Shown in pieces: positions 27,340 through 64,000 of a stretch of 64,000 bases of DNA (its first letter is position 1; every line of letters starts with the position of its first letter). The stretch covers positions 60,016,001 through 60,080,000 of the forward strand of contig NC_083282.1 of assembly GCF_963506605.1 (NCBI RefSeq), read 5' to 3'. The DNA is from Zootoca vivipara. Its lineage: Eukaryota. The translations under genes were made by a program, and so were the position numbers. The notes below the pieces were generated by a model, which was given only the letters and a program-made list of their open reading frames with translations, was not told the DNA's origin and made no database searches.

Positions 27340-29934
27340 TATTACAAGTCAGCTCCCTGGGCATTTCCCAGATAGTGAGTAGGTAGCACATAGTCCTCCA
27401 CAGAGGTATGCCCACAATTATTATTATTTTTTGCAGAACTGTGATCTTTCGTTTTCTTTTTTTCTACGCTGCCCCGGGCTCCTTTCAGAGGAAGCACAGT
27501 ATATAAATTCAGTTGTGTTGGTTTTTTTTTTTTTTTTTTAAAAATCATATCATGCATGCAACCAAGCATGAAGATTCCTTATAAAAAATTAACCCTATTA
27601 CCCCGAGAAAGTGGCCTAGTTCTGGCTATGGGTAGTACCATTTCAAACTGTGGGCAGGGGCTCACATGATTATATACTCCATACAAAAAATCCCATGCAC
27701 AAAAAAAGGCTAGTATGTCAGGAGGGAGACATGATGTGCAAAGTTCTGCATCTGCAGGGGATGTTTTTGTATGGAAGAACCTTCCGTGATCTGAGCCTGT
27801 ACCTTAAATGTGAAATGGTGCAGTCCAAATGCAGACTTACCACCTTATCTGCTGTTTGCAAAAACACAAGTCATAGCTTCATATACTTCTGACTAAGAAA
27901 TGACAAAAATATATTATCAATGACAGTGATTATTATGACCATCATCAGTAAAGATTATTGCTTTAAATACGCACACAAGTTTATAAACTTAAACAAGAAA
28001 AAGAGGGGTGGTGGTTTCGCCCCCCCCCCCATTTGCTTCCAGACTAGACCTATCATTAGCACGGATTTCTTGCTACCTTCCTGCCATGCTAAACACGCCG
28101 GCTATTTTCTGCAGCTTCTAAATTCTCCACTCTGCCCTTTCGCTGCACGCTTTCCCTTACAGAGGAATCAGATCTGATTCCCAACACGGCATCATAAAAC
28201 AAATGGGCCGTACTTCCTAACAGCTGCCTGCCACTACACCCTCTTTTTCTCTCTTGCACAGAGCTGCAGGAGAGAAGCGGGAACTCTTTGATGTGCTTAG
28301 CTTTTCAACCCGTTTCATGGCTGAGCCTGTGTCTACATGTCTTGTTATCACCATGCATTGTTCAAAACCTCACTGCATTCTCTTTAAGCGGGGGTTTGGG
28401 GGGGGGAGGGCTCTCTTGCTCTGCATCTGCACCCATGCGCAAGGCCGGCAGCTACATTGCCAGGCATTATCTGCCATCATTTCACTACATTAGCTCTGCT
28501 GCCTGCCAGTTCGGCCGTTTCCTTGGGAGCAGAGAACGCAAGATCTCGTCAGGATCAGAGGGGCTTGTACCGTGCTGAAACCGCTAAATGCACCCAGGAG
28601 CATGCAAGTTCCTCTCCAATAACGAAGGCTCAAAACCGGACATACAGAGGCAGCTGAAGCAGGAGCAAGAAACCCAGCTGCCTGCCAGCATATCAGAGCA
28701 AGGAGCTGCCAGGCTTAAAGAGAGGATGCTTCTCTTAACTTCTGATTAAATTTTAAAAGCCCTCTGCTTCTTGGCTAGCTCGTAGCCAAAGCTGCAAAAA
28801 GCTCTGCCGACTTTCTGCAGAAGTGATAAGCGTGTTCCTAGAAAAGAAACAGCTCTTTCTGTTACCCACATGCAGAACCTCCTGGGAGCCCATCTGTTCT
28901 CTAAGCCTCGGAGAAAACTATCACCTTACCTCTTCCCAGATCTGCTGTAATGCCTCTCGTCCTAACCTTTCCCTGCCTTATTAAGGGAAGCCCCCTTTTA
29001 TCTGGGGCTTTGCAAAGCTGACTTTGGAAACAGCTTGGCCCCTCATTGGACACTTCCCATCAAATCCCCTCGCAGGCCAAGTGGTGTAATCAAGCAACGA
29101 GGAGTGACAATGGGTCCTGCAGTAATGACTGGGGCTGACAGGGGAAGCCGGCATATGCTGGATGGCTGTGCTGTTCACTTCATTGATTCAATTAACTCCC
29201 CCATTTTGGGGAGGGGGGGAAGGAAGGAGGGGTATCATCACAAAGCACGCCTCATGTGACAAGGACCTATTAGGAATTATTAATATTTCAGGCGTGCTGA
29301 TTCTCAGCGTCTGTCTCAAGAGAGGGAGATGATAACAAAGGAGCACAAGGGTTGAGTCCAATGGTCCAGATTTCGCACTCTCCCTACTATGGCCTGAGCT
29401 TAATTCCTAGCCAGGAAACATTTCTCTCCTTTCATTTTTACGAATTCCAGTGGCAGAATATATACCCAAATTTTACTTCTACCCCATTCAGCTAAAATAT
29501 CTTAAGTAACCAGGCTGGGAACGAGGCCTTTCATTGGAGGTCTTGGGCAACCATTGTCAGTCACGCCAAATGGTCCTGAGCATGACTGATTGGGCTCCGC
29601 AGAAAGAAGTCGTCCAAGAACTATTTGGGTTTTCTTTTATGGGCACACTGAGATGGATATACACACACAGTGTTGTTGTTTTTCAGGGGGTTCTCAAGGG
29701 TATGCAGTACCGGCACCTGTTTTTCGTTTTCCAAGTGTGGCATTTACTATAACTGCATGGTGAGTACCAGCACCTATTTTTCGGGGGGGGGAGCACAGTG
29801 TGTGTGTATACACACACACACACACACACACAAACACAGACTGGATCTAGCAGTGCCAAACGAGGGCACTGAGTTTTGCAAACATTTTCACACACACACC
29901 CTTCCAGACGAAGTGCATTATTTTTGTGTAACTG

Positions 29935-39761: not shown

Positions 39762-41376
39762 TTACTCAGAAATCCTAGACCTGGAAGGTTGGAATAACCA
39801 TTATGGGTGGTATGCGTACTTGCTGTATGAAAAAGTGGCTGTGCATAAAGACTTCCTGAACCACATAGTCAGGAAGTCAATATATAAAATATGGATAAAA
39901 TATAGATGGCTCCTTGGACCTAAGATGCCTAAGTGGGTATTGCCCATGGAGGTTATGGCAGTGAAAAAAAGGAATACAGAAACAGTATGGCCCATGTACC
40001 AACAACTAGTAACAGAAGGAGATGGAGATAAACCTATGAGGAGATCAGCAATTATTGTAATAGTTGGCTACAATGCCATCAAATAGCACATAGATTTAAC
40101 CAGGGTAGAAAGAAAGGTTTTGAACAAAAAGTGTCAAAACTACAAAGTGAATTATTACAGCCTAGGAAGAAGACCATCTCTAGGACAATCTGTTGTTAGA
40201 GTGGGAACTGAAGGATTAAACAACCAAAGAAGTAATGATAAAATGGGCGAAGGATTTTGGTCGTACAGTACAAATGGAAAGCTGGGAAAAGTTGTGGAAG
40301 GTTGATATGAACTTCACGGCCTGTTATGTGATAAAAGAGAATATGATGAAGATGTTTTATTGCTGGTATCTCACCCCGGGAAAAATGACTAAGATTTATA
40401 AAAAGCAATCAAATATATGCTGGAGATGCAAGAGGGAGGTGGGAACTTTTTATCATATATGGTGGGGTTGCAAAATTATAAAACTATTCTGGAATGAGTT
40501 ATATGACGAGCTGAAAAAATTATTTAAGACTCCGTTTACAAAAATACCAGAGGTTTTTTTGTTAGGATTAATAGCCAATGACATCCCCAGAGATGAGAGA
40601 AGTGTATTCCTTTATGCAACTGCAGCGGCCAGAATATTAATTGCAAAGAACTGGAAGGGGGAGAAAATCTCATCAGTGTCAGAATGGCAAAATAAATTCT
40701 GCGAGTTTGTAGAAATGGCAAAATTGACAGCAATTATTAGAGGCCATACAAATCAGAAAATAATCAAAGAATGGGACAGAGTGAAGGAATACATGAAAAA
40801 ATATTGTTCCGGAATTGAAATACAGTCATACCTCGGATTTCGTACTTTCGGGTTGCATACTCGGCAGACACTTCCGGGTTCCGCCACACGCACATGCGCA
40901 GAAGCGTTCTGCGCGCTTCGCGCATGTACAGAAGCGCTCTATCGGCGCTTCGCGCATGCACTAAAGCGCCGCTCGGGTTGAGTACTTTTCGGGGTGCAAA
41001 CGGCACCCTGGAACGGATTGGGTACTCAACCCGAAGTACCACTGTAATAATAGATAATGTGTAAAGCGCACAGGGGTACGTAAGAAAAGAATAATAGAAT
41101 TAACTGGACAATTACTAAATCGAATTAACACAAGATGGAAGAAGTAAAACTTTGAGATCACACACAGGTGAGGGGGAGTGGGGGGGTTGTGGGAAATTAT
41201 AATATTATTTTCTAACTGCATTCATATATAGTAAAGAGAAGTTTAGAGTAATGATCCACATTTTTATTTCAATAGAGGCAATTTATGTAATAGACTTATG
41301 TTAGAAAATGATCTCGATGTTTGTATTTTTTAATTTAAAGTTTATATTATTATTTTTCTGGTTTTGAAATAAATAA
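39762..41376 (+). mobile_element. L1-clade LINE, 5'-truncated ORF2 C-terminus plus 3' UTR (antisense to INKA2)
   Basis: Frameshifted ORF2 pieces 39736-40086 and 40235-40820 with Cys-rich motif CWRCKREVGTFYHIWWGC and AARILIAKNWK; AATAAA-rich end; long flanking duplication. Confidence 0.88.
40823..41044. mobile_element. Tc1/mariner MITE inserted at the end of L1 ORF2
   Basis: TA|CAGTCATACCTCGG ... CCGAAGTACCACTG|TA. Confidence 0.88.
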
Positions 41377-50709: not shown

Positions 50710-51919
50710 CTCTAGTGAGCATCAACCTGAAACTCATTGATGTGCCAATTAATTCCCATGCCAATTGTTCTTTACAATAGTTAGTAACATCTATGTCACC
50801 CTTCCTGATCCTGATGTTTGGGACAACTCCCTCCAACTACAGCTGTGCCTGCAAGGTAACTTGTAAGAGTACTCAGGTTCAAGTGTATCTATAGGATTCT
50901 CATGAGATTGCTCCCAGGGCACAGATCCGGAAAAAAGAGCACCCACCCTCCTTGAAATTCAAATTTCAGAAGCCCCTTCAACAAGTTGTAAGATCTTTTT
51001 TTATTTTAAATAAAGTGTAAAGTTCATTTCACTGAAGCAGGCACTTAGTGATTAGGCATAAGGACGCATTTCTTTTATGGTCTGCAAGGCATTAAATTTA
51101 GATGATTAAAGTGCTTTGAGTGTTTGTGTGTGTTTGTTTTGCATTATTTATACTTTGGATGGTTGTTATGCGCCATGTGCCAAATACAGATAGAACTTTG
51201 AAAATCTAAGTGAATAAAATATAAGCAGTTCTGGAATTAATACTTTTGGTGGTGGAGGAGGGAATCTATATTTCAGGGTCTGCTTACAAAGGCACAATCC
51301 TTAAGTGAAGAGTTTCAAGACTCAGGAGGTCTGGGGTACTGGTGCCTGAGGGCCTGTAGGGTTCAGCAGAAGCCCCACTATGCTGATGGAAGGCAAGATA
51401 CAGCACAAAAACACGCTGGCAGAACACCATGGGTTCTCAGGATGAAGAGCCAAACCAAAAGGACCGTTTGGTCCATGCAGGGGCCTTACTATTGGTCCAT
51501 GCTGCCCTCCTTCTGATTGGCACAGGTGTGCCTACATGTAGGGTGCCATTTGCCACCTTTTCTAATGCAGGATTGTACCGTGGATTCAAACCTGGGTTCC
51601 CTTGCATATATAGAATGAATTGTTCATTCCTGTCCAATGTTGTGGCTAAGTAGTTAGGAAACTGCTCTATAGAGCTTCAGGTCCTGGGAGCCCTTTCTCT
51701 TTTGAACCTGACATATTTCTTGCCAGGCATGCGAGAGGAGAGCCAGGCTGTATTTATTCCCTTCCCCCTGGTGAGGCTCGGTCTCCAATCTCCTGCTTCC
51801 TAACCCCTTGCCCTTTGCAGGGAGACCACAGAGGCGCCTATCCTGCAGCCACTCTCATTGCATATTCCAGCCCATCTTCTTGACTGCTTGTCCCATAAAG
51901 CCTTTTTCTACCATGGGTA

Positions 51920-52020
51920 GCTTCCTGCAGCCAATCGGAAGCCGTGCTTTGGTTTTTGAACGTTTTGGAAGTCAAACAGACTTCTGGAACGGATTCCGTT
52001 CGACTTCCAAGGTACGGCTG
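51920..52020. mobile_element. Tc1/mariner MITE half
   Basis: cttcctgcagccaatcggaagcc...gacttccaaggtacggctg|TA. Confidence 0.8.
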
Positions 52021-52562
52021 TACAGGATTGTAATCCTAAAAATTCCTACTTGGGGCTTCTATTTGGATAAATATGCCTAGGACTGGGCTGTAAACGGGAC
52101 TCTGGCACTTTTGCACACCTCCACTGAAGCCTCAATCTCATGCGCATGACACTTGAGCAACATTCTGGCACTTAAAGAGCTCTGCTTTTATGGTTCCAGT
52201 TAGAATTAAATCCCTGGCAGATAATGGTCTTAAGACACTGGAACGCATTATGAATTCCAGTTTGGGCTGGCCCCACTTGGATTTTATTCACTAGTGTTGG
52301 TGGTAGTCATCTTTTGGATGTAAAGAAAGCTTTTGTATCCCGAAGCTCTTCATACCATTTTGACTCTTCCATGACCTCTCTCTATCTCACACACAGAGAA
52401 CTGCAGTTGCTATTATTTATTCACGTGTGACATGAACTTTCTTCTTCTTCTTTTCATAGCCCTGTTGAACAATTCCAGCGCTTTATTTAAAGACATCCCA
52501 ATGCTTCATTACTAATCCATTAGAACAAAAAACTAGGGCATCTGATAGAAGCATCTGCTGGT

Positions 52563-52582
52563 GGGCAAGCCCAAGCATGTCA
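52563..52582. promoter_or_regulatory. Candidate p53 response element in INKA2 intron 1
   Basis: GGGCAAGCCC AAGCATGTCA: two abutting RRRCWWGYYY half-sites, zero spacer, 19/20 consensus. Confidence 0.7.
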
Positions 52583-54763
52583 CGGCAAGAAACACTTGTG
52601 CCTGAGCCGTGGGGTGGAGGAAGGGCAGAATGTCAGTATGAGGTGCTCAGTATCACACTCGTCAATCTCTGCTCAAAGGGCCGTTTACATCTAAGAGGTA
52701 ACAACTCTGATCTCTTCTCTTTTTTGGAAGCAGTGCAGTCTAGTAATTAAGGTATTATATGTGGATCTGGGAGATAGGAACTTAAGCCACAGCTCCGCCC
52801 CACTTTATCACTAGGTGACAACATTTGTTTAGTCTGTTAGGTGGTAATATGCTGCCGGGCGGGGGGGGGGGGGGGAGGCGTGCTACCTTACAGGATAGCT
52901 GCGAAAGTGGCTAAGAAAAGGGGGTTGTAAAACAATACGCAGATTAGAAGAGTTGCAGAAGTAACATTCTTCTTACATTTCTAAAGAAAATGTGCAGGAT
53001 TTTGCAAAGCAGCTTGGCTATGTCCTTAAGGGGAAAGTCTGGGTAGAAAAAAAAACCTCTAGCTGACTGGCCTCCCTCCAGCACCATAAATTAGATTAAG
53101 TGTCTGTGGATGGAACAGGCAGTGACAAGACAGGGAAGGAACTGGAAATGATTGGATGGGAGTCAGAATGTGCTCCGAGGTATAGCGATGGGTCTCCACT
53201 GCCAAGGTAGAAGGAGGGATACATGACAAAGCTCTTTGCATCTCATCCCTTGAGCATCATCACCTTTACACTGAATTTTACCAGGATTCCAGTTTTCTTT
53301 TATTTGAACGCACAAATACGGGCCTGTGCAAATCTTTCAGAGTCAGTAATGGAGGGATTCGGCTGTAAAATGGAAACACGGTCTAGTTGCACAGTTGGGG
53401 AGACTCAGGTTCGAATTGTGTGAACTTTGCTATGGGTTCTCAGTTTTCAGTCTGTAAAATGGGAACGACAATAATGGCAGCAGCTATCTGGCGTAGCTGG
53501 TGTAGCTGGTGGGATGGGTAATGGACCTCAGATATTTCCAGAATGCCAGGCTCACATTCTATAGATAGAAATTTTATGTGAGGCTCAGCATTTCCTTTTA
53601 GGACACTGAACAAGTGGCGTTCGGCATCTTCCAGAACTAGATGTCGCTACTTTGCATGAAAATTAAAACGCTCCAGCAGGGCTATTAGCAAAACTGTACA
53701 ATACTGTACCAAATACTGTACCAAACAAAAACGGAAGCTTAGGAGAGAAAGCCAATGGGAAATGATTGCCTTGTGGTATGCGTCTGTCTCTGAAGATTTG
53801 TAGGCACTCCTATAATTAAAAGAAGTGGCAGGCAACCAGAATGCCTGGAGAGATGATACAGCCACATCTGTGCTCTGGGGGGGGGGGATGTTTCAGAGCA
53901 GGGCTACCAGAGGAGAAAAATTGATGAGTTAGTAGGGAAGGAGCCCCTGGGTAAACCTGCCTGACAGGTCCAGGTTAGGAAGGAGAAAATGAATGGAGGT
54001 ACACAGTTAGGTCTTGGGAGAATGCAGTTTTGATGTGGATGTGTGAGGCTTTCTATCCAGTTAGATGCTCACACTAACAGTGCAAGAACGTGGGGAAGGA
54101 AGACAGTAACAGGTTGTGATGCGATGCCAGTTTATAATCCCTTTCAGGGCTCATGATAAAGGGCTCGGTGTCTGAACTGATTACAAAGTTCACCGCTCCC
54201 TGTCACAGTTAAACAAACAGAAGGCGATGCCTTTGCAGGAAGAGCGAAGGAGTGAGGGGGGTGGGCTGTCGGTGCCAGCGCTCCCAGCCAGAAAAGAGAA
54301 GAGGTTCCTTCTTTCGTGCTGAGCGTAAGACACAAACACACATAGAGGGAAGGGTTAAACACACATTGCTGCCAATGGGATTTAGCCAGCGTGTCAGCGG
54401 GAAAAGCTAAACTGTGCAAACAGATTTGGAAACCACTTTCCGTGATGGAGTCGTGGGGGGTGGGAGAGGACTAAGGAGTCTTCCTCTTTATCCCATCTCA
54501 TCCCAGGGGCTTGGAAGGAAACAAAAAAATCCCCCACGGGGAAATTGGAGGCCACACAGCTGCAAAGGAAGGACACGGCGAGAGCTCTAAACAAAGCCCG
54601 GGAAATAAGCGCTCTGCAGGAAGGAGAGCGAGAGAGAGGCAACATTCATTGACTGACACCCCCTAGCTGGGAAGTTGCAAACGGAGCAGGAGACCGAGCT
54701 TGCAACGCATGGATTTCCTCCTACCCAATCCCCCAGTCCCTTCTTTTCCCGGGCATTCCTTAC

Positions 54764-54832
54764 CAACTCCTGCTTCAGACGGCGTAGGTAATGATCCATG
54801 TTTTTCTTTTCCATTCTCACATCCAAGTCCAT
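54764..54832 (-). CDS. INKA2: INKA2 coding exon 1 (MDLDVRMEKKNMDHYLRRLKQEL); the real start may be the second ATG at 54814
   Basis: Matches recalled human N-terminus M..ESREMDCYLRRLKQEL. Donor TTG|GTAAGG at 54763. Phase 0 joins exon 2 in frame, giving 371 aa (365 aa from ATG 54814). Confidence 0.93.
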
Positions 54833-54889: not shown

Positions 54890-55490
54890 GTCCGGCCAGG
54901 CAATCTTGAGAGGTGTTTTCCTCGCCAGCGCCAACTAATCCAGTGGCTCCTTTAAATGCCCATTTGTCACTTCAGCTCTGGATAAGAATATCGCTCTCTC
55001 CAAAAGAAGAAGGTTGGAAGTTTGCCTTCTCTTGTTGTTCACTTCTCCTAGGGCGCCAAGGAAAACCAGAAGCCCGATCTCCGCTTAGGAAAGAGATAAA
55101 ATGTTGAAATGGCACATGCACAGGCTTGCAGCGCGCGGAAAGCCTGCAAACGGGCTGCAAACAGGCGTGCGCCCCGCGCGCAGTTACTCTTTGCAGAAGC
55201 TGGCAAGAGAACGTGCTCGGTGCGCGAGCAGCGGAGAAGCAGCAGCAAACTGTAGAGGCAGGAGAGATCTCGACGTTGCTGGTGATTGGCAGCTCGGAGC
55301 AGCTTCAGCAGCAGGCGGCAGAGGCGAGGCTTAAGGAGAGAGCCGGCTCCCAAGTTCGCGAGGGTGTCTTCTCTGTCTGCGCACCGGTAGGGAGGTCCCG
55401 CCCCAGGGGGGTGGGCCTGGCTTCTCAAGTCAGCGCAACGACAGACCCTCTGAGCTGCCTGCTTTGCTCCAGTGCGTTCCCGCTCTGCAT
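54890..55490 (-). promoter_or_regulatory. CpG-rich promoter / 5' UTR region of INKA2
   Basis: Marked local CpG enrichment (55120-55490) in a CpG-poor window. GC box GGGGCGGG (55397-55404, minus) and CCAAT (55285-55289, minus) upstream of exon 1. Confidence 0.7.
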
Positions 55491-55492
55491 GT

Positions 55493-56394
55493 CAGAACGT
55501 AAGAAGAGCCTGCTGGATCATCAGGCCAAGCAATGGGCCATTTAGTTCAGCATCCTGTTCTCCCCTTCTCTCACCTAGCAGATGTTTGCCTTGTCCTCCA
55601 TTCATTTGTCTAAACCTCTTTTGAAGCCACCCAAATTGGTGGCCATCCCTGCCTCCTGTGGGAGAGAGTTCCATTGTTCCTCTGTGCGCTGTCTGGCGAG
55701 AACCTTCCATTATCCCGCTTTGTTGGATAAAACAAGTTCTAGTTTTATGAGAAAGGGAGAAAAACTTTTCTCTATTCACTTTATCTAATGTTGAGCATTA
55801 TTTTGTAATCTATCATGTCACCTCTTTGTCGCCTTTTCTCTAAACCAGGGGTCAGCAAACTTTTTCAGCAGGGGAACGGTCCACTGTCCCTCAGACCTTG
55901 TGGGGGGCCGGACTATATTTTGAAAAAAATATATGAATGAATTCCTATGCCCCACAAATAAATCAGAGATGCATTTTAAATAAAAGGAGACATTCCACTC
56001 ATGTAAAAACACCAGACAGGCCCCACAAATAACCCAGAGATGCATTTTAAATAAAAGAACACATTCTACTCATGTAAAAACATGCTGATTCCCGGACCGT
56101 CCGCGGGCTGGATTTAGAAGGCGACTGGGCTGCATCTGGCCCCCGGGCCTCGAACGCCACAACCTTTCTTCATAGGGAAATTTATTGTTTATTTGATTAT
56201 TTACATGCTACTTTTGAGGCAGACCTCACAAAGCAGTTTACATAAGATTATTGCAACAGTAAGCACCACTTTTTTTAAAAAAAGTTACAATAAAACAGAT
56301 AAGACAACTTGTTTGTTTAGAAAAAGCCACTACCGTAGTGCTGATTCTCCCCTCCCCTCAGGGCAGGTCTTTCAAGACACCCTACTGGTGGCAG

Positions 56395-61215: not shown

Positions 61216-62478
61216 ATAGAATCATAGAATCATAGAGTTGGAAGAGACCACAAGGGCCATCCAGTCCAACCCCCTGCCAAGCAGGAAACACCATCAAAGC
61301 ATTCTTGACATATGGCTGTCAACCCTCTGCTTAAAGACCTCCAAAGAAGGAGACTCCACCACGCTCCTTGGTAGCAAATTCCACTGCCGAACAGCTCTTA
61401 CTGTCAGGAAGTTCTTCCTAATGTTTTGGTGGAATCTTCTTTCTTGAAGTTTGAATCCATTGCTCCGTGTCCGCTTCTCTGGAGCAGCAGAAAACAATCT
61501 TTCTCCCTCCTCCATATGACATCCTTTCATATATTTGAACATGGCTATCATATCACCCCTTAACCTTCTCTTCTCCAGGCTAAACATACCCAGCTCCCTA
61601 AGCCGTTCCTCATAAGGCATCGTTTCCAGGACTTTGACCATTTTGGTTGCCCTCTTCTGGACACGTTCCAGCTTGTCAGTATCCTTCTTGAACTGTGGTG
61701 CCCAGAACTGGACACAGTACTCCAGGTGAGGTCTGACCAGAGCAGAAAACAGTGGTACTATTACTTCCCTAGATCTAGATGCTATACTCCTATTGATGCA
61801 GCCCAGAATTGCATTGGCTTTTTTAGCTGCTGCATCACACTGCTGACTCATGTCAAGTCTGTGGTCTACCAAGACTCCTAGGTCCTTTTCACATGTACTG
61901 CTCTCAAGCCAGGTGTCACCCATCCTGTATTTGTGCCTTTCATTTTTTTTGCCCAAGTGTAGTACCTTACATTTCTCCTTGTTAAAATTCATCTTGTTTG
62001 CTTTGGCCCAGTTGTCTAATCTATTAAGGTCATTCTGAAGTGTGATCCTGTCCTCTGGGGTATTAGCCACCCCTCCCAATTTGGTGTCGTCTGCAAACTT
62101 GCTCAGGATGCCCTCAAGCCCATCATCCAAGTCATTGATAAAGATGTTGAATAAGACTGGGCCCAAGACAGAACCCTGTGGCACCCCACTAGTCACTACT
62201 CTCCAGGATGAGGAGGAGCCATTGATGAGCACCCTTTGGGTTCGGTCAGTAAGCCAGTTACAAATCCACTGAATGGTAGCATTGTCTAGCCTGCATTTTA
62301 CCAGCTTATTTACAAGAATATCATGGGGCACCTTGTCAAAGGCCTTGCTGAAATCAAGATAGGCTACATCCACAGCGTTCCCTTCATCTACCAGGCTTGT
62401 AATTCTATCAAAAAATGAGATCAGATTAGTCTGACATGACTTATTTTTCAGAAACCCATGCTGATTTTTAGTGATCAC
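61216..62478 (-). mobile_element. Young CR1 LINE, 5'-truncated, open RT ORF
   Basis: 394-aa uninterrupted ORF 61294-62478 with [28 protein letters not shown]; (ATTCTATG)n tail. Confidence 0.96.
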
Positions 62479-64000
62479 AAACTATTACGTGCCTCCACCT
62501 TAATAGTTTGTGCTCCAGGCTTTACAGAGCAGCCAACATGGAAGGTTGGAGGCAACTGAATGTTAACCTCCAAGCCAAAGGGTTACCCTTTCAAGAGTCT
62601 TCACTGTTCAGAAAGGGGGTGGAGCCTAGGAGGGGTTAGTCTGTCCAAAGAGGGATAAAAAAAGCTTCATTTGAGGATTCATACACACTTCCACTTGAGT
62701 CATCCCTAGAAAGCACAGGTCTGAGAGGTTTTCTGTTTGTCCCCAACTTTTTGCCTTTGCTCTGCTGCTTTCCCTCAGAAAACCCACTCTTTAGTGCTAA
62801 ATTGGAACAAACAGCAATCCACAGAAAATCCGATTGCTATTTGCTCTGATTCACTGCTAAACCGTGGTCTTCTCCTGGGGGGAGTAGGAAGCGGTGGGGC
62901 AAATGGGGGTGTGGATAAGCCCCGAGTTACAGACTAGAATGGAAAAAGCTATCTGCTTGGAGCTCTCCAAGGTCCAGCAACTTCAACTCAATCCAACCCA
63001 CCTGACAAAAACCACCCTCACCTGTCCATGGATAGGAAAAGACATCGAGAGATCATTGACTTCTGTGTATCCTGAGGATCCATCAGCCATGACCACAAGT
63101 AGCAAGTGTGAGAGTATGATTTCCAAAATGGCTCACAGCTCAAAAAAGTATCCTAGCAGTGAGCAAGAGGGAGACCATCTTGTCTTTTAAGTTGCCCCAA
63201 TAAATGTGTTTATAAAGCACAGCAGCCTTCTTTTTAAAAATAAAAATCAGATGCTTTAAAAACTATGTGTGTTCTTTCAAGTGTTAAAATCTCCATTGAG
63301 CCAATATTAAGCTGTCCAGCATGTTCACAAATGCCCACAGGAAATGGCTTCACCTGGCAACTGGCAAGAGCATCGTTCTGAGGCCCTCATGCATAATTTG
63401 CAGAACCAGTGAGCTGTGTGATCCATGAGCAGGAAAAACATTTTCCTCCTTTGCTTTTGTTTGATTTGGTTTGGGACACAGACGCTGGGTTTAGCGTTGA
63501 TTCAACCCAGATCACGCCTGCTAGAACTGCAGAGAGGAAAGAGCTATCTTTGTGTCAATTCATAACAGCTGCTGTCCCTCAACCCCAAATTATCGTAGTA
63601 CTTTTTAGCACCACTTCCTTTCATCTGGTATCCTTTAGCACATCTCCAGTGTCCTCAGCTGCAGCAGACCCTGAGTCATCAGATGAACACTGATTATACA
63701 ATGCTCTTCATAAACCTATCCATCTCAGTTTTAAAACTTGTGAGAATGACTATTCCTGGGAGACAATGCCACCATTTTTCAAAGTGTTCTTTTCACCTAG
63801 CACGACTCAGCTATTTCTATCGGAATAAACTGCATCTCTCAGCTGCTAGAAGTGTTGTTTTGCATTTTTGTGCCTTCTGATTCATTGCACGGCCTTCCCA
63901 GGGCCCTCATTTGTCAAGTTGCCAGCAGTTAAGTTGCCAGCACTCTGTGTGTGTGTGTGTCCAGGATAGATCGTGGGTACACAAATTAAAACTTTTAATG

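What the first reader, a model, noticed from the sequence alone, without database searches (positions are those of the whole stretch)
52563..52601. Near-perfect p53 response element 2.2 kb into INKA2 intron 1
Seen: GGGCAAGCCC (10/10) + AAGCATGTCA (9/10) with no spacer, followed by two weaker cores (CGGCAAGAAA, ACACTTGTGC), in unique non-TE sequence. Established: consensus is RRRCWWGYYY x2, and human INKA2 has been reported as a direct p53 target that restrains PAK4. Inference: the p53 -> INKA2 -| PAK4 link may be conserved across amniotes, or re-evolved in lizards; I know of no description in reptiles.
Basis: partly seen in the sequence, partly recalled or inferred. Interest (0 to 1): 0.7.

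Follow-up and report, generated by a model that had tools for sequence, protein, structure and literature searches.

The report
Likely p53 switch in lizard INKA2
A wall-lizard gene, INKA2, carries a near-perfect match to the binding motif of the tumour suppressor p53 in its first intron, and this site likely lets p53 switch the gene on after DNA damage, as is already reported for this gene in humans, mice and (in a gene list) chickens, so it would extend a known link rather than reveal a new one.

Summary
The motif is real: 52563-52582 matches RRRCWWGYYY x2 at 19 of 20 positions, with no spacer and intact cores, 2.18 kb into intron 1 of an intact INKA2 gene of a Podarcis-like lizard, in single-copy DNA. 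The two extra 'cores' are weak; the fourth is out of register. Motif quality alone proves little: the genome holds 4,218 sites with at most one mismatch against about 3,850 expected. Position carries the case: the chance of such a site in 10 kb around this exon is about 0.3-1.4%, and INKA2 is a top-ranked p53 target in mouse and human and is listed among chicken p53 targets. Lizard p53 keeps its DNA-contact residues. In two close relatives the site survives (one consensus-keeping change; one 19-bp deletion allele that rebuilds a 19/20 site), a weak test. It differs in place and sequence from the mammalian site, so site turnover is more likely than descent. No binding or expression data exist here. 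Verdict: likely functional p53-family element (about 0.7); new member of a known kind; modest interest. The scan's earlier notes held nothing on this locus.

The parts
52563..52582 (.). p53-family response element, two half-sites, no spacer, 19/20 to consensus, both CWWG cores intact
   Evidence: genome background
52583..52592 (.). weak third half-site in register (6/10, CAAG core); likely dispensable
   Evidence: removed in one allele of organism B
52592..52601 (.). weak fourth half-site (8/10), one base out of register; its right half supplies the rebuilt half-site in the deletion allele of organism B
54764..54832 (-). INKA2 coding part of exon 1 (23 codons), followed by donor GTAAGG
   Evidence: 23/23 identical to P0001
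26650..54763 (-). INKA2 intron 1 (28.1 kb)
   Evidence: splice sites; spliced product 371 aa as P0001
25603..26649 (-). INKA2 coding exon 2 with FAM212 (iBox) domain
   Evidence: Pfam PF15342 E 2.3e-26; homologues
55001..55500 (.). CpG island, probable INKA2 promoter (start site not mapped)
   Evidence: GC 0.59, CpG o/e 0.77; promoter role inferred

Best explanation
The 20 bases at 52563-52582 match the p53 consensus at 19 of 20 positions inside INKA2 intron 1 and likely act as a promoter-proximal enhancer that p53 would bind after stress to raise INKA2, which would then likely inhibit PAK4 as in mammals. Shown: the motif, the gene, single-copy context, a lizard p53 with the human DNA-contact residues. 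Inferred: binding, induction, and the PAK4 step. The regulatory link is probably old in amniotes, while this particular site probably arose or was replaced separately from the mammalian one (binding-site turnover).
For: (1) Motif 19/20, spacer 0, mismatch only at the outermost base; functional sites are described as two half-sites without spacer, mostly promoter-proximal (PMC5511239 passages). (2) Chance of such a site in 10 kb around exon 1: 0.3% for the strict class (about 400 sites per 1.44 Gb, scaled from the 80 listed C1 rows), 1.3% for any core-intact <=1-mismatch site (Markov). (3) Independent prior on the gene: direct target in human and mouse by reporter (PMC6521941 section 21); top-scoring mouse target; log2 fold 3.2 and 5.3 after irradiation in p53+/+ but not p53-/- mouse embryos (PMC12145846 supplement rows); induced and bound in chicken cells. 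(4) The C13 gene, TP53 by elimination, keeps equivalents of K120, S241, R248, R273, A276, C277, R280, R283 (S241 and R248 numbered from the match to 6xre, the others recalled). (5) Positive control: lizard CDKN1A has a site of the same strict class about 2.3 kb upstream of its CpG island, like the human p21 site (position recalled). (6) Relatives: organism C differs in the site by one G>A at an R position; organism B has one intact allele and one 19-bp deletion allele that still gives two abutting half-sites with one mismatch.
Against: No binding, chromatin, reporter or expression data. Genome-wide such sites are barely above chance (4,218 seen vs 3,846 expected; end-mismatch class about 160 estimated vs 215 expected), and predicted p53REs alone are not sufficient for binding (PMC6755996 passage). 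In the paralogue control, <=1-mismatch sites were in 2 of 5 known-target orthologues (180 kb) and also in 2 of 8 control genes (220 kb), so the loose class does not separate targets from controls. Relatives are only about 3-5% diverged; one consensus-keeping change is worth about a twofold likelihood; flanks are not significantly more conserved (11/391 vs 47/924, p=0.08); the deletion re-forms the site through a 3-base microhomology that would do so with or without selection. 2 of 4 relatives gave no verdict. The site is probably 2.5-2.9 kb from the start site, at the edge of the 2.5-kb zone. The chicken list rests on overexpressed p53 with 15,108 genes called bound.
Confidence: 0.7

Rival explanations
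1. Chance match in neutral intronic DNA; p53 may reach INKA2 through another, weaker site (as in mammals, where one half-site is imperfect) or not at all.
For: About 2,000 core-intact <=1-mismatch sites expected per genome by composition alone, no excess for the end-mismatch class; controls also carry such sites; no conserved block around it; an allele with a deletion through it segregates in a relative.
Against: Only 0.3-1.3% chance within 10 kb of a gene picked beforehand as a strong p53 target; both observed changes leave a 19/20 site; no better candidate nearer the promoter at <=2 mismatches.
Confidence: 0.17
2. A functional site used mainly by p63 or p73 (for example in skin or neurons) rather than by stress-induced p53.
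For: All three family genes are present with the same DNA-contact residues; they share the motif (own knowledge).
Against: In mammals and chicken INKA2 responds to p53 itself. Not exclusive of p53 use.
Confidence: 0.08
3. The site is the direct descendant of the same ancestral element as the mammalian intron-1 site, pushed away from exon 1 by insertions.
For: On the gene's sense strand it matches the human 18-mer at 12 of 14 positions over its 3' part, and a human cloning primer from the same amplicon matches 13 of 20 at 52566.
Against: Both sequences must fit the consensus; 9 of 11 free positions has p=0.033 per orientation before correcting for two orientations and five motifs tried; 12/18 or better occurs 18 times and 13/20 occurs 13 times in the intron; position differs (2.2 kb vs about 0.6 kb). 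This is a variant of the best explanation, not an alternative to function.
Confidence: 0.15
4. The site was delivered by a transposable element.
For: Repeats do carry perfect p53 sites in this genome.
Against: No similarity to those three repeat groups, single genomic match, single-copy depth in relatives at 80% likeness. A very old decayed element cannot be excluded.
Confidence: 0.03

Closest known systems
Human/mouse INKA2 (FAM212B) intron-1 p53 binding site (Liu et al. 2019, PMC6521941; abstract, section 21, passages and part 1 of 3 of the supplement read)
   Same: Same gene, first intron, abutting half-sites, within a few kb of the promoter.
   Different: Mammalian site is about 600 bp from exon 1, has an imperfect first half-site (JASPAR 9.2/10.9 vs 22-23 for p21) and is tested by reporter; lizard site is 2.18 kb in, closer to consensus, untested; 12/18 identity; their conservation figure covers mammals only.
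Chicken p53 target FAM212B (Chen et al. 2022, PMC9513273; sections 18-19, passages and supplement rows read)
   Same: Sauropsid INKA2 induced by p53 and bound within 10 kb of the start; same motif found de novo.
   Different: Gene-list entry only, from overexpressed p53; no site position in what I saw.
Species-specific p53REs at shared target genes (Fischer 2019, PMC6755996; passages and supplement rows read)
   Same: Shared target gene with possibly non-overlapping sites; turnover of p53REs is described as common.
   Different: Described for mouse versus human; here mammal versus squamate, and only predicted.
CDKN1A (p21) 5' p53 response element
   Same: 19/20 site with end mismatch about 2.3 kb from the promoter; an equivalent is present in this lizard.
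   Different: Upstream rather than intronic; experimentally established in mammals.

Membership tests
Canonical p53 response element | Two RRRCWWGYYY half-sites | tested here: met
   10/10 + 9/10
Canonical p53 response element | No spacer, C and G cores intact in both halves | tested here: met
   criterion from PMC5511239 passages
Canonical p53 response element | Within about 2.5 kb of a start site or in intron 1 | tested here: inconclusive
   In intron 1, 2.18 kb from the donor; start site not mapped, CpG island 2.4-2.9 kb away
Canonical p53 response element | Host p53 with conserved DNA-contact residues | tested here: met
Canonical p53 response element | Occupied by p53 in cells | not testable with these tools
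   no ChIP data for this species reachable
Canonical p53 response element | p53-dependent, core-dependent activation of the gene | not testable with these tools
   needs reporter or induction experiment
Canonical p53 response element | Selective constraint on the motif | tested here: inconclusive
   2 of 4 relatives readable, both keep a 19/20 site; low power
Orthologue of the mammalian INKA2 intron-1 site | Same position (about 600 bp after exon 1) | tested here: not met
   2.18 kb; no core-intact <=2-mismatch site near 600 bp
Orthologue of the mammalian INKA2 intron-1 site | Sequence identity beyond what the consensus forces | tested here: inconclusive
   12/18; p about 0.03-0.07 uncorrected
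Orthologue of the mammalian INKA2 intron-1 site | Alignable flanks | not testable with these tools
   no mammalian or bird genome DNA held
Four-half-site (double) p53 element | Four half-sites in 10-bp register | tested here: not met
   third 6/10, fourth shifted by one base; both lost in one allele of organism B
Transposon-derived p53 element | Lies within a repeat copy | tested here: not met

The most novel reading that the evidence does not exclude
p53 control of the PAK4 inhibitor INKA2 is a pan-amniote circuit kept for over 300 million years while its binding site was replaced: lizards use their own, stronger element in intron 1, and selection keeps it intact even through a deletion that splices two half-sites into a new one.
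Probability: 0.45. Interest if true: 0.45.

Novelty: new member of a known kind. Interest (0 to 1): 0.3.

Why it matters
Few p53 targets are shared even between mouse and human (14-21%, PMC6755996 passage). A working lizard site would put INKA2 in the small, old core of the p53 programme and give a ready reporter for p53 activity in squamates, where my searches found no mapped p53 element. It would not change how p53 or INKA2 are thought to work.

Tried and rejected
RNA: no RNA holder listed; one RNA run laid on the 391-base intronic stretch gave 0 reads from 6% of the run, which is no test. Organism D: covered but the table was cut (70 rows hidden) and no contig was laid, so no verdict. Organism E: no cover over the site, no verdict. 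Distant squamates, birds and mammals could not be aligned: the genome tool has no relatives here. Search for the mammalian site and primers in the intron gave only chance-level hits. Zebrafish: inka2/fam212b appeared in 2 of 11 supplement files of PMC12145846, both mouse tables, so no fish support. The tool's reversed-pattern control (826 vs 4,218) was rejected as a background because its dinucleotides differ; an order-3 Markov model from 564 kb was used instead (this sample is gene-rich and includes the sites under test). MDM2, BTG2 and SESN1 orthologues showed no <=1-mismatch site in the 30-40 kb fetched; gene names there are inferred from peptides and chromosome context, and first exons may lie outside the fetched DNA. 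The earlier-findings look-ups gave nothing on this locus.

Full report
Observation. The window reads GGGCAAGCCC AAGCATGTCA at 52563-52582: 10/10 and 9/10 to RRRCWWGYYY, no spacer, both cores intact. At spacer 0 it is the only core-intact site with at most one mismatch in the window and in 144 kb from 30 kb left to 50 kb right of it.

Gene context. A minus-strand gene has a 23-codon exon at 54832-54764 with a GTAAGG donor and a 348-codon exon at 26649-25603. Exon 2 carries the FAM212 domain; the best homologue is named INKA2 of Podarcis muralis (98%) and the spliced product matches it at 363 of 371 residues. The only other FAM212 gene in the genome is on C2, taken as INKA1. DEAD-box exons that I recall as DDX20 lie head-to-head about 26 kb upstream. 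The site is 2.18 kb from the donor; a CpG island at 55.0-55.5 kb is the probable promoter. The DNA around the site is single-copy; repeats lie at 51.9-52.0 kb and 50.3-50.8 kb.

Chance. The 1.44-Gb genome has 4,218 sites with at most one mismatch against 3,846 from an order-3 Markov model; about half are core-intact. The 19-base pattern with the outer base free gives 327 + 317 strand matches; the 80 listed C1 rows reduce to 50 sites (30 perfect, 20 end-mismatch), which scales to about 400 sites, about 240 perfect (136 expected) and about 160 end-mismatch (215 expected). So only perfect sites are in excess, partly through repeats; this site's class is not. Per 64-kb window the chance is 2-8%; per 10 kb around a chosen exon 0.3-1.3%. 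The argument for function therefore rests on the gene.

Prior on the gene. Liu et al. show by reporter that human and mouse INKA2 are direct p53 targets through a site about 600 bp into intron 1 (PMC6521941). FAM212B is in the human census table (PMC5511239 passage) and the core programme (PMC5630028 passage). In Fischer's mouse-human tables mouse Fam212b has the top scores, 15/15 and 9/9; irradiated mouse embryos induce it 9- to 40-fold only with p53. In chicken LMH cells FAM212B is among 809 induced genes and 675 induced-and-bound genes (column inferred from the row number), with the caveat of overexpression and 15,108 bound genes. It was not in the zebrafish tables searched. With a prior of about 0.6 that the lizard gene has a p53 site near its promoter and about 0.25 that such a site is this good, against about 0.01 by chance, the odds favour a bound site; I discount to 0.7 for post-hoc choice, distance and the untested step to induction (inference).

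Trans factor. Three p53-family genes are present. C5 and C6 look like TP63 and TP73; C13 is TP53 by elimination and keeps the equivalents of K120, S241, R248, R273, A276, C277, R280 and R283 (numbering partly recalled). Chicken p53 has the human motif.

Controls. Of 5 orthologues of known targets (CDKN1A, MDM2, BTG2, SESN1, SESN2; 180 kb), 2 had a <=1-mismatch site; of 8 control genes (220 kb), 2 did (CDKN1B; a third BTG-like gene with a repeat-borne perfect site). The loose class thus does not discriminate. The CDKN1A site is of the same strict class as the INKA2 site and lies 2.3 kb upstream of its CpG island.

Relatives. Four related organisms (coded B-E, about 3-5% diverged) were laid. C has one change in the 20-mer, G>A at 52575, an R position. 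B is heterozygous: one allele unchanged in the site, one lacking 52578-52596; through a 3-base microhomology this joins the left half of half-site 2 to the right half of half-site 4 and leaves two abutting half-sites with one mismatch, now at position 9. This shows the extra cores are dispensable in at least one allele and that no observed change destroys the site, but power is low, and local conservation is not significant (p=0.08). D and E gave no verdict.

Homology to the mammalian site. The human 18-mer matches the lizard sense strand at 12 of 18 (12 of 14 in the 3' part), and one human primer at 13 of 20. Given the shared consensus this is p about 0.03-0.07 before multiple testing, and equal scores occur elsewhere in the intron. 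Position differs. Turnover is the simpler reading and is common for p53; descent is not excluded.

Literature. Searches for INKA2 + lizard gave 0 papers; p53 + response element + lizard + transposable element gave 7 and p53 + reptile/squamate terms 137, none of the listed ones on such a site by title or abstract start (listings only).

Verdict. A real, well-formed p53-family element in a sensible place in a known p53 target; likely functional, untested; a new member of a known kind. Interest 0.3.

Noticed in passing
L011-L015; G000 genome-wide: An interspersed repeat of about 630-700 bp (77-93% alike between copies, TG...CA ends and a possible 5-bp target duplication in L013, so likely a solo LTR) carries a perfect p53 20-mer: 20 exact and 18 one-mismatch copies in the genome. 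Two further repeat groups carry 19/20 sites (L016-L018, L019-L020). Resembles transposon-spread p53 sites in human and zebrafish; I found no report for squamates.
   Followed up: partly
G000:C2:49,721,193 (L076), BTG-like gene at C2:49,716,077-49,716,304: One copy of that repeat places a 20/20 site, plus an 18/20 site 42 bp away, 4.9 kb upstream of the BTG-domain exon of a third BTG1/2-like gene.
   Followed up: partly
G000:C7:50,422,509 (L039): Lizard CDKN1A has a 19/20 p53 site about 2.3 kb upstream of its CpG island and an 18/20 site inside it.
   Followed up: partly
G000:C5:94,375,130; C6:34,384,995; C10:27,913,242: 19/20 sites downstream of the first coding exon of CDKN1B and 11.5 kb upstream of a sestrin exon; an 18/20 site in a CpG island in MDM2.
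   Followed up: no
L007 (G000:C13:50,737,260-50,737,373): Lizard TP53 has glutamine at the position of human M243 in the L3 loop (p63/p73 have valine).
   Followed up: no
window 28930-28971, minus strand: Possible alternative first coding exon of INKA2, 2.3 kb before exon 2, resembling the N-terminus of the Sceloporus X2 isoform (9 of 14, E 4e-4).
   Followed up: no
window 11613-12371, 40220-40978, 61297-62481, 51919-52024: LINE-like reverse-transcriptase fragments (named from recall of the peptides) and a very high-copy 105-bp repeat; ordinary for a lizard genome.
   Followed up: no
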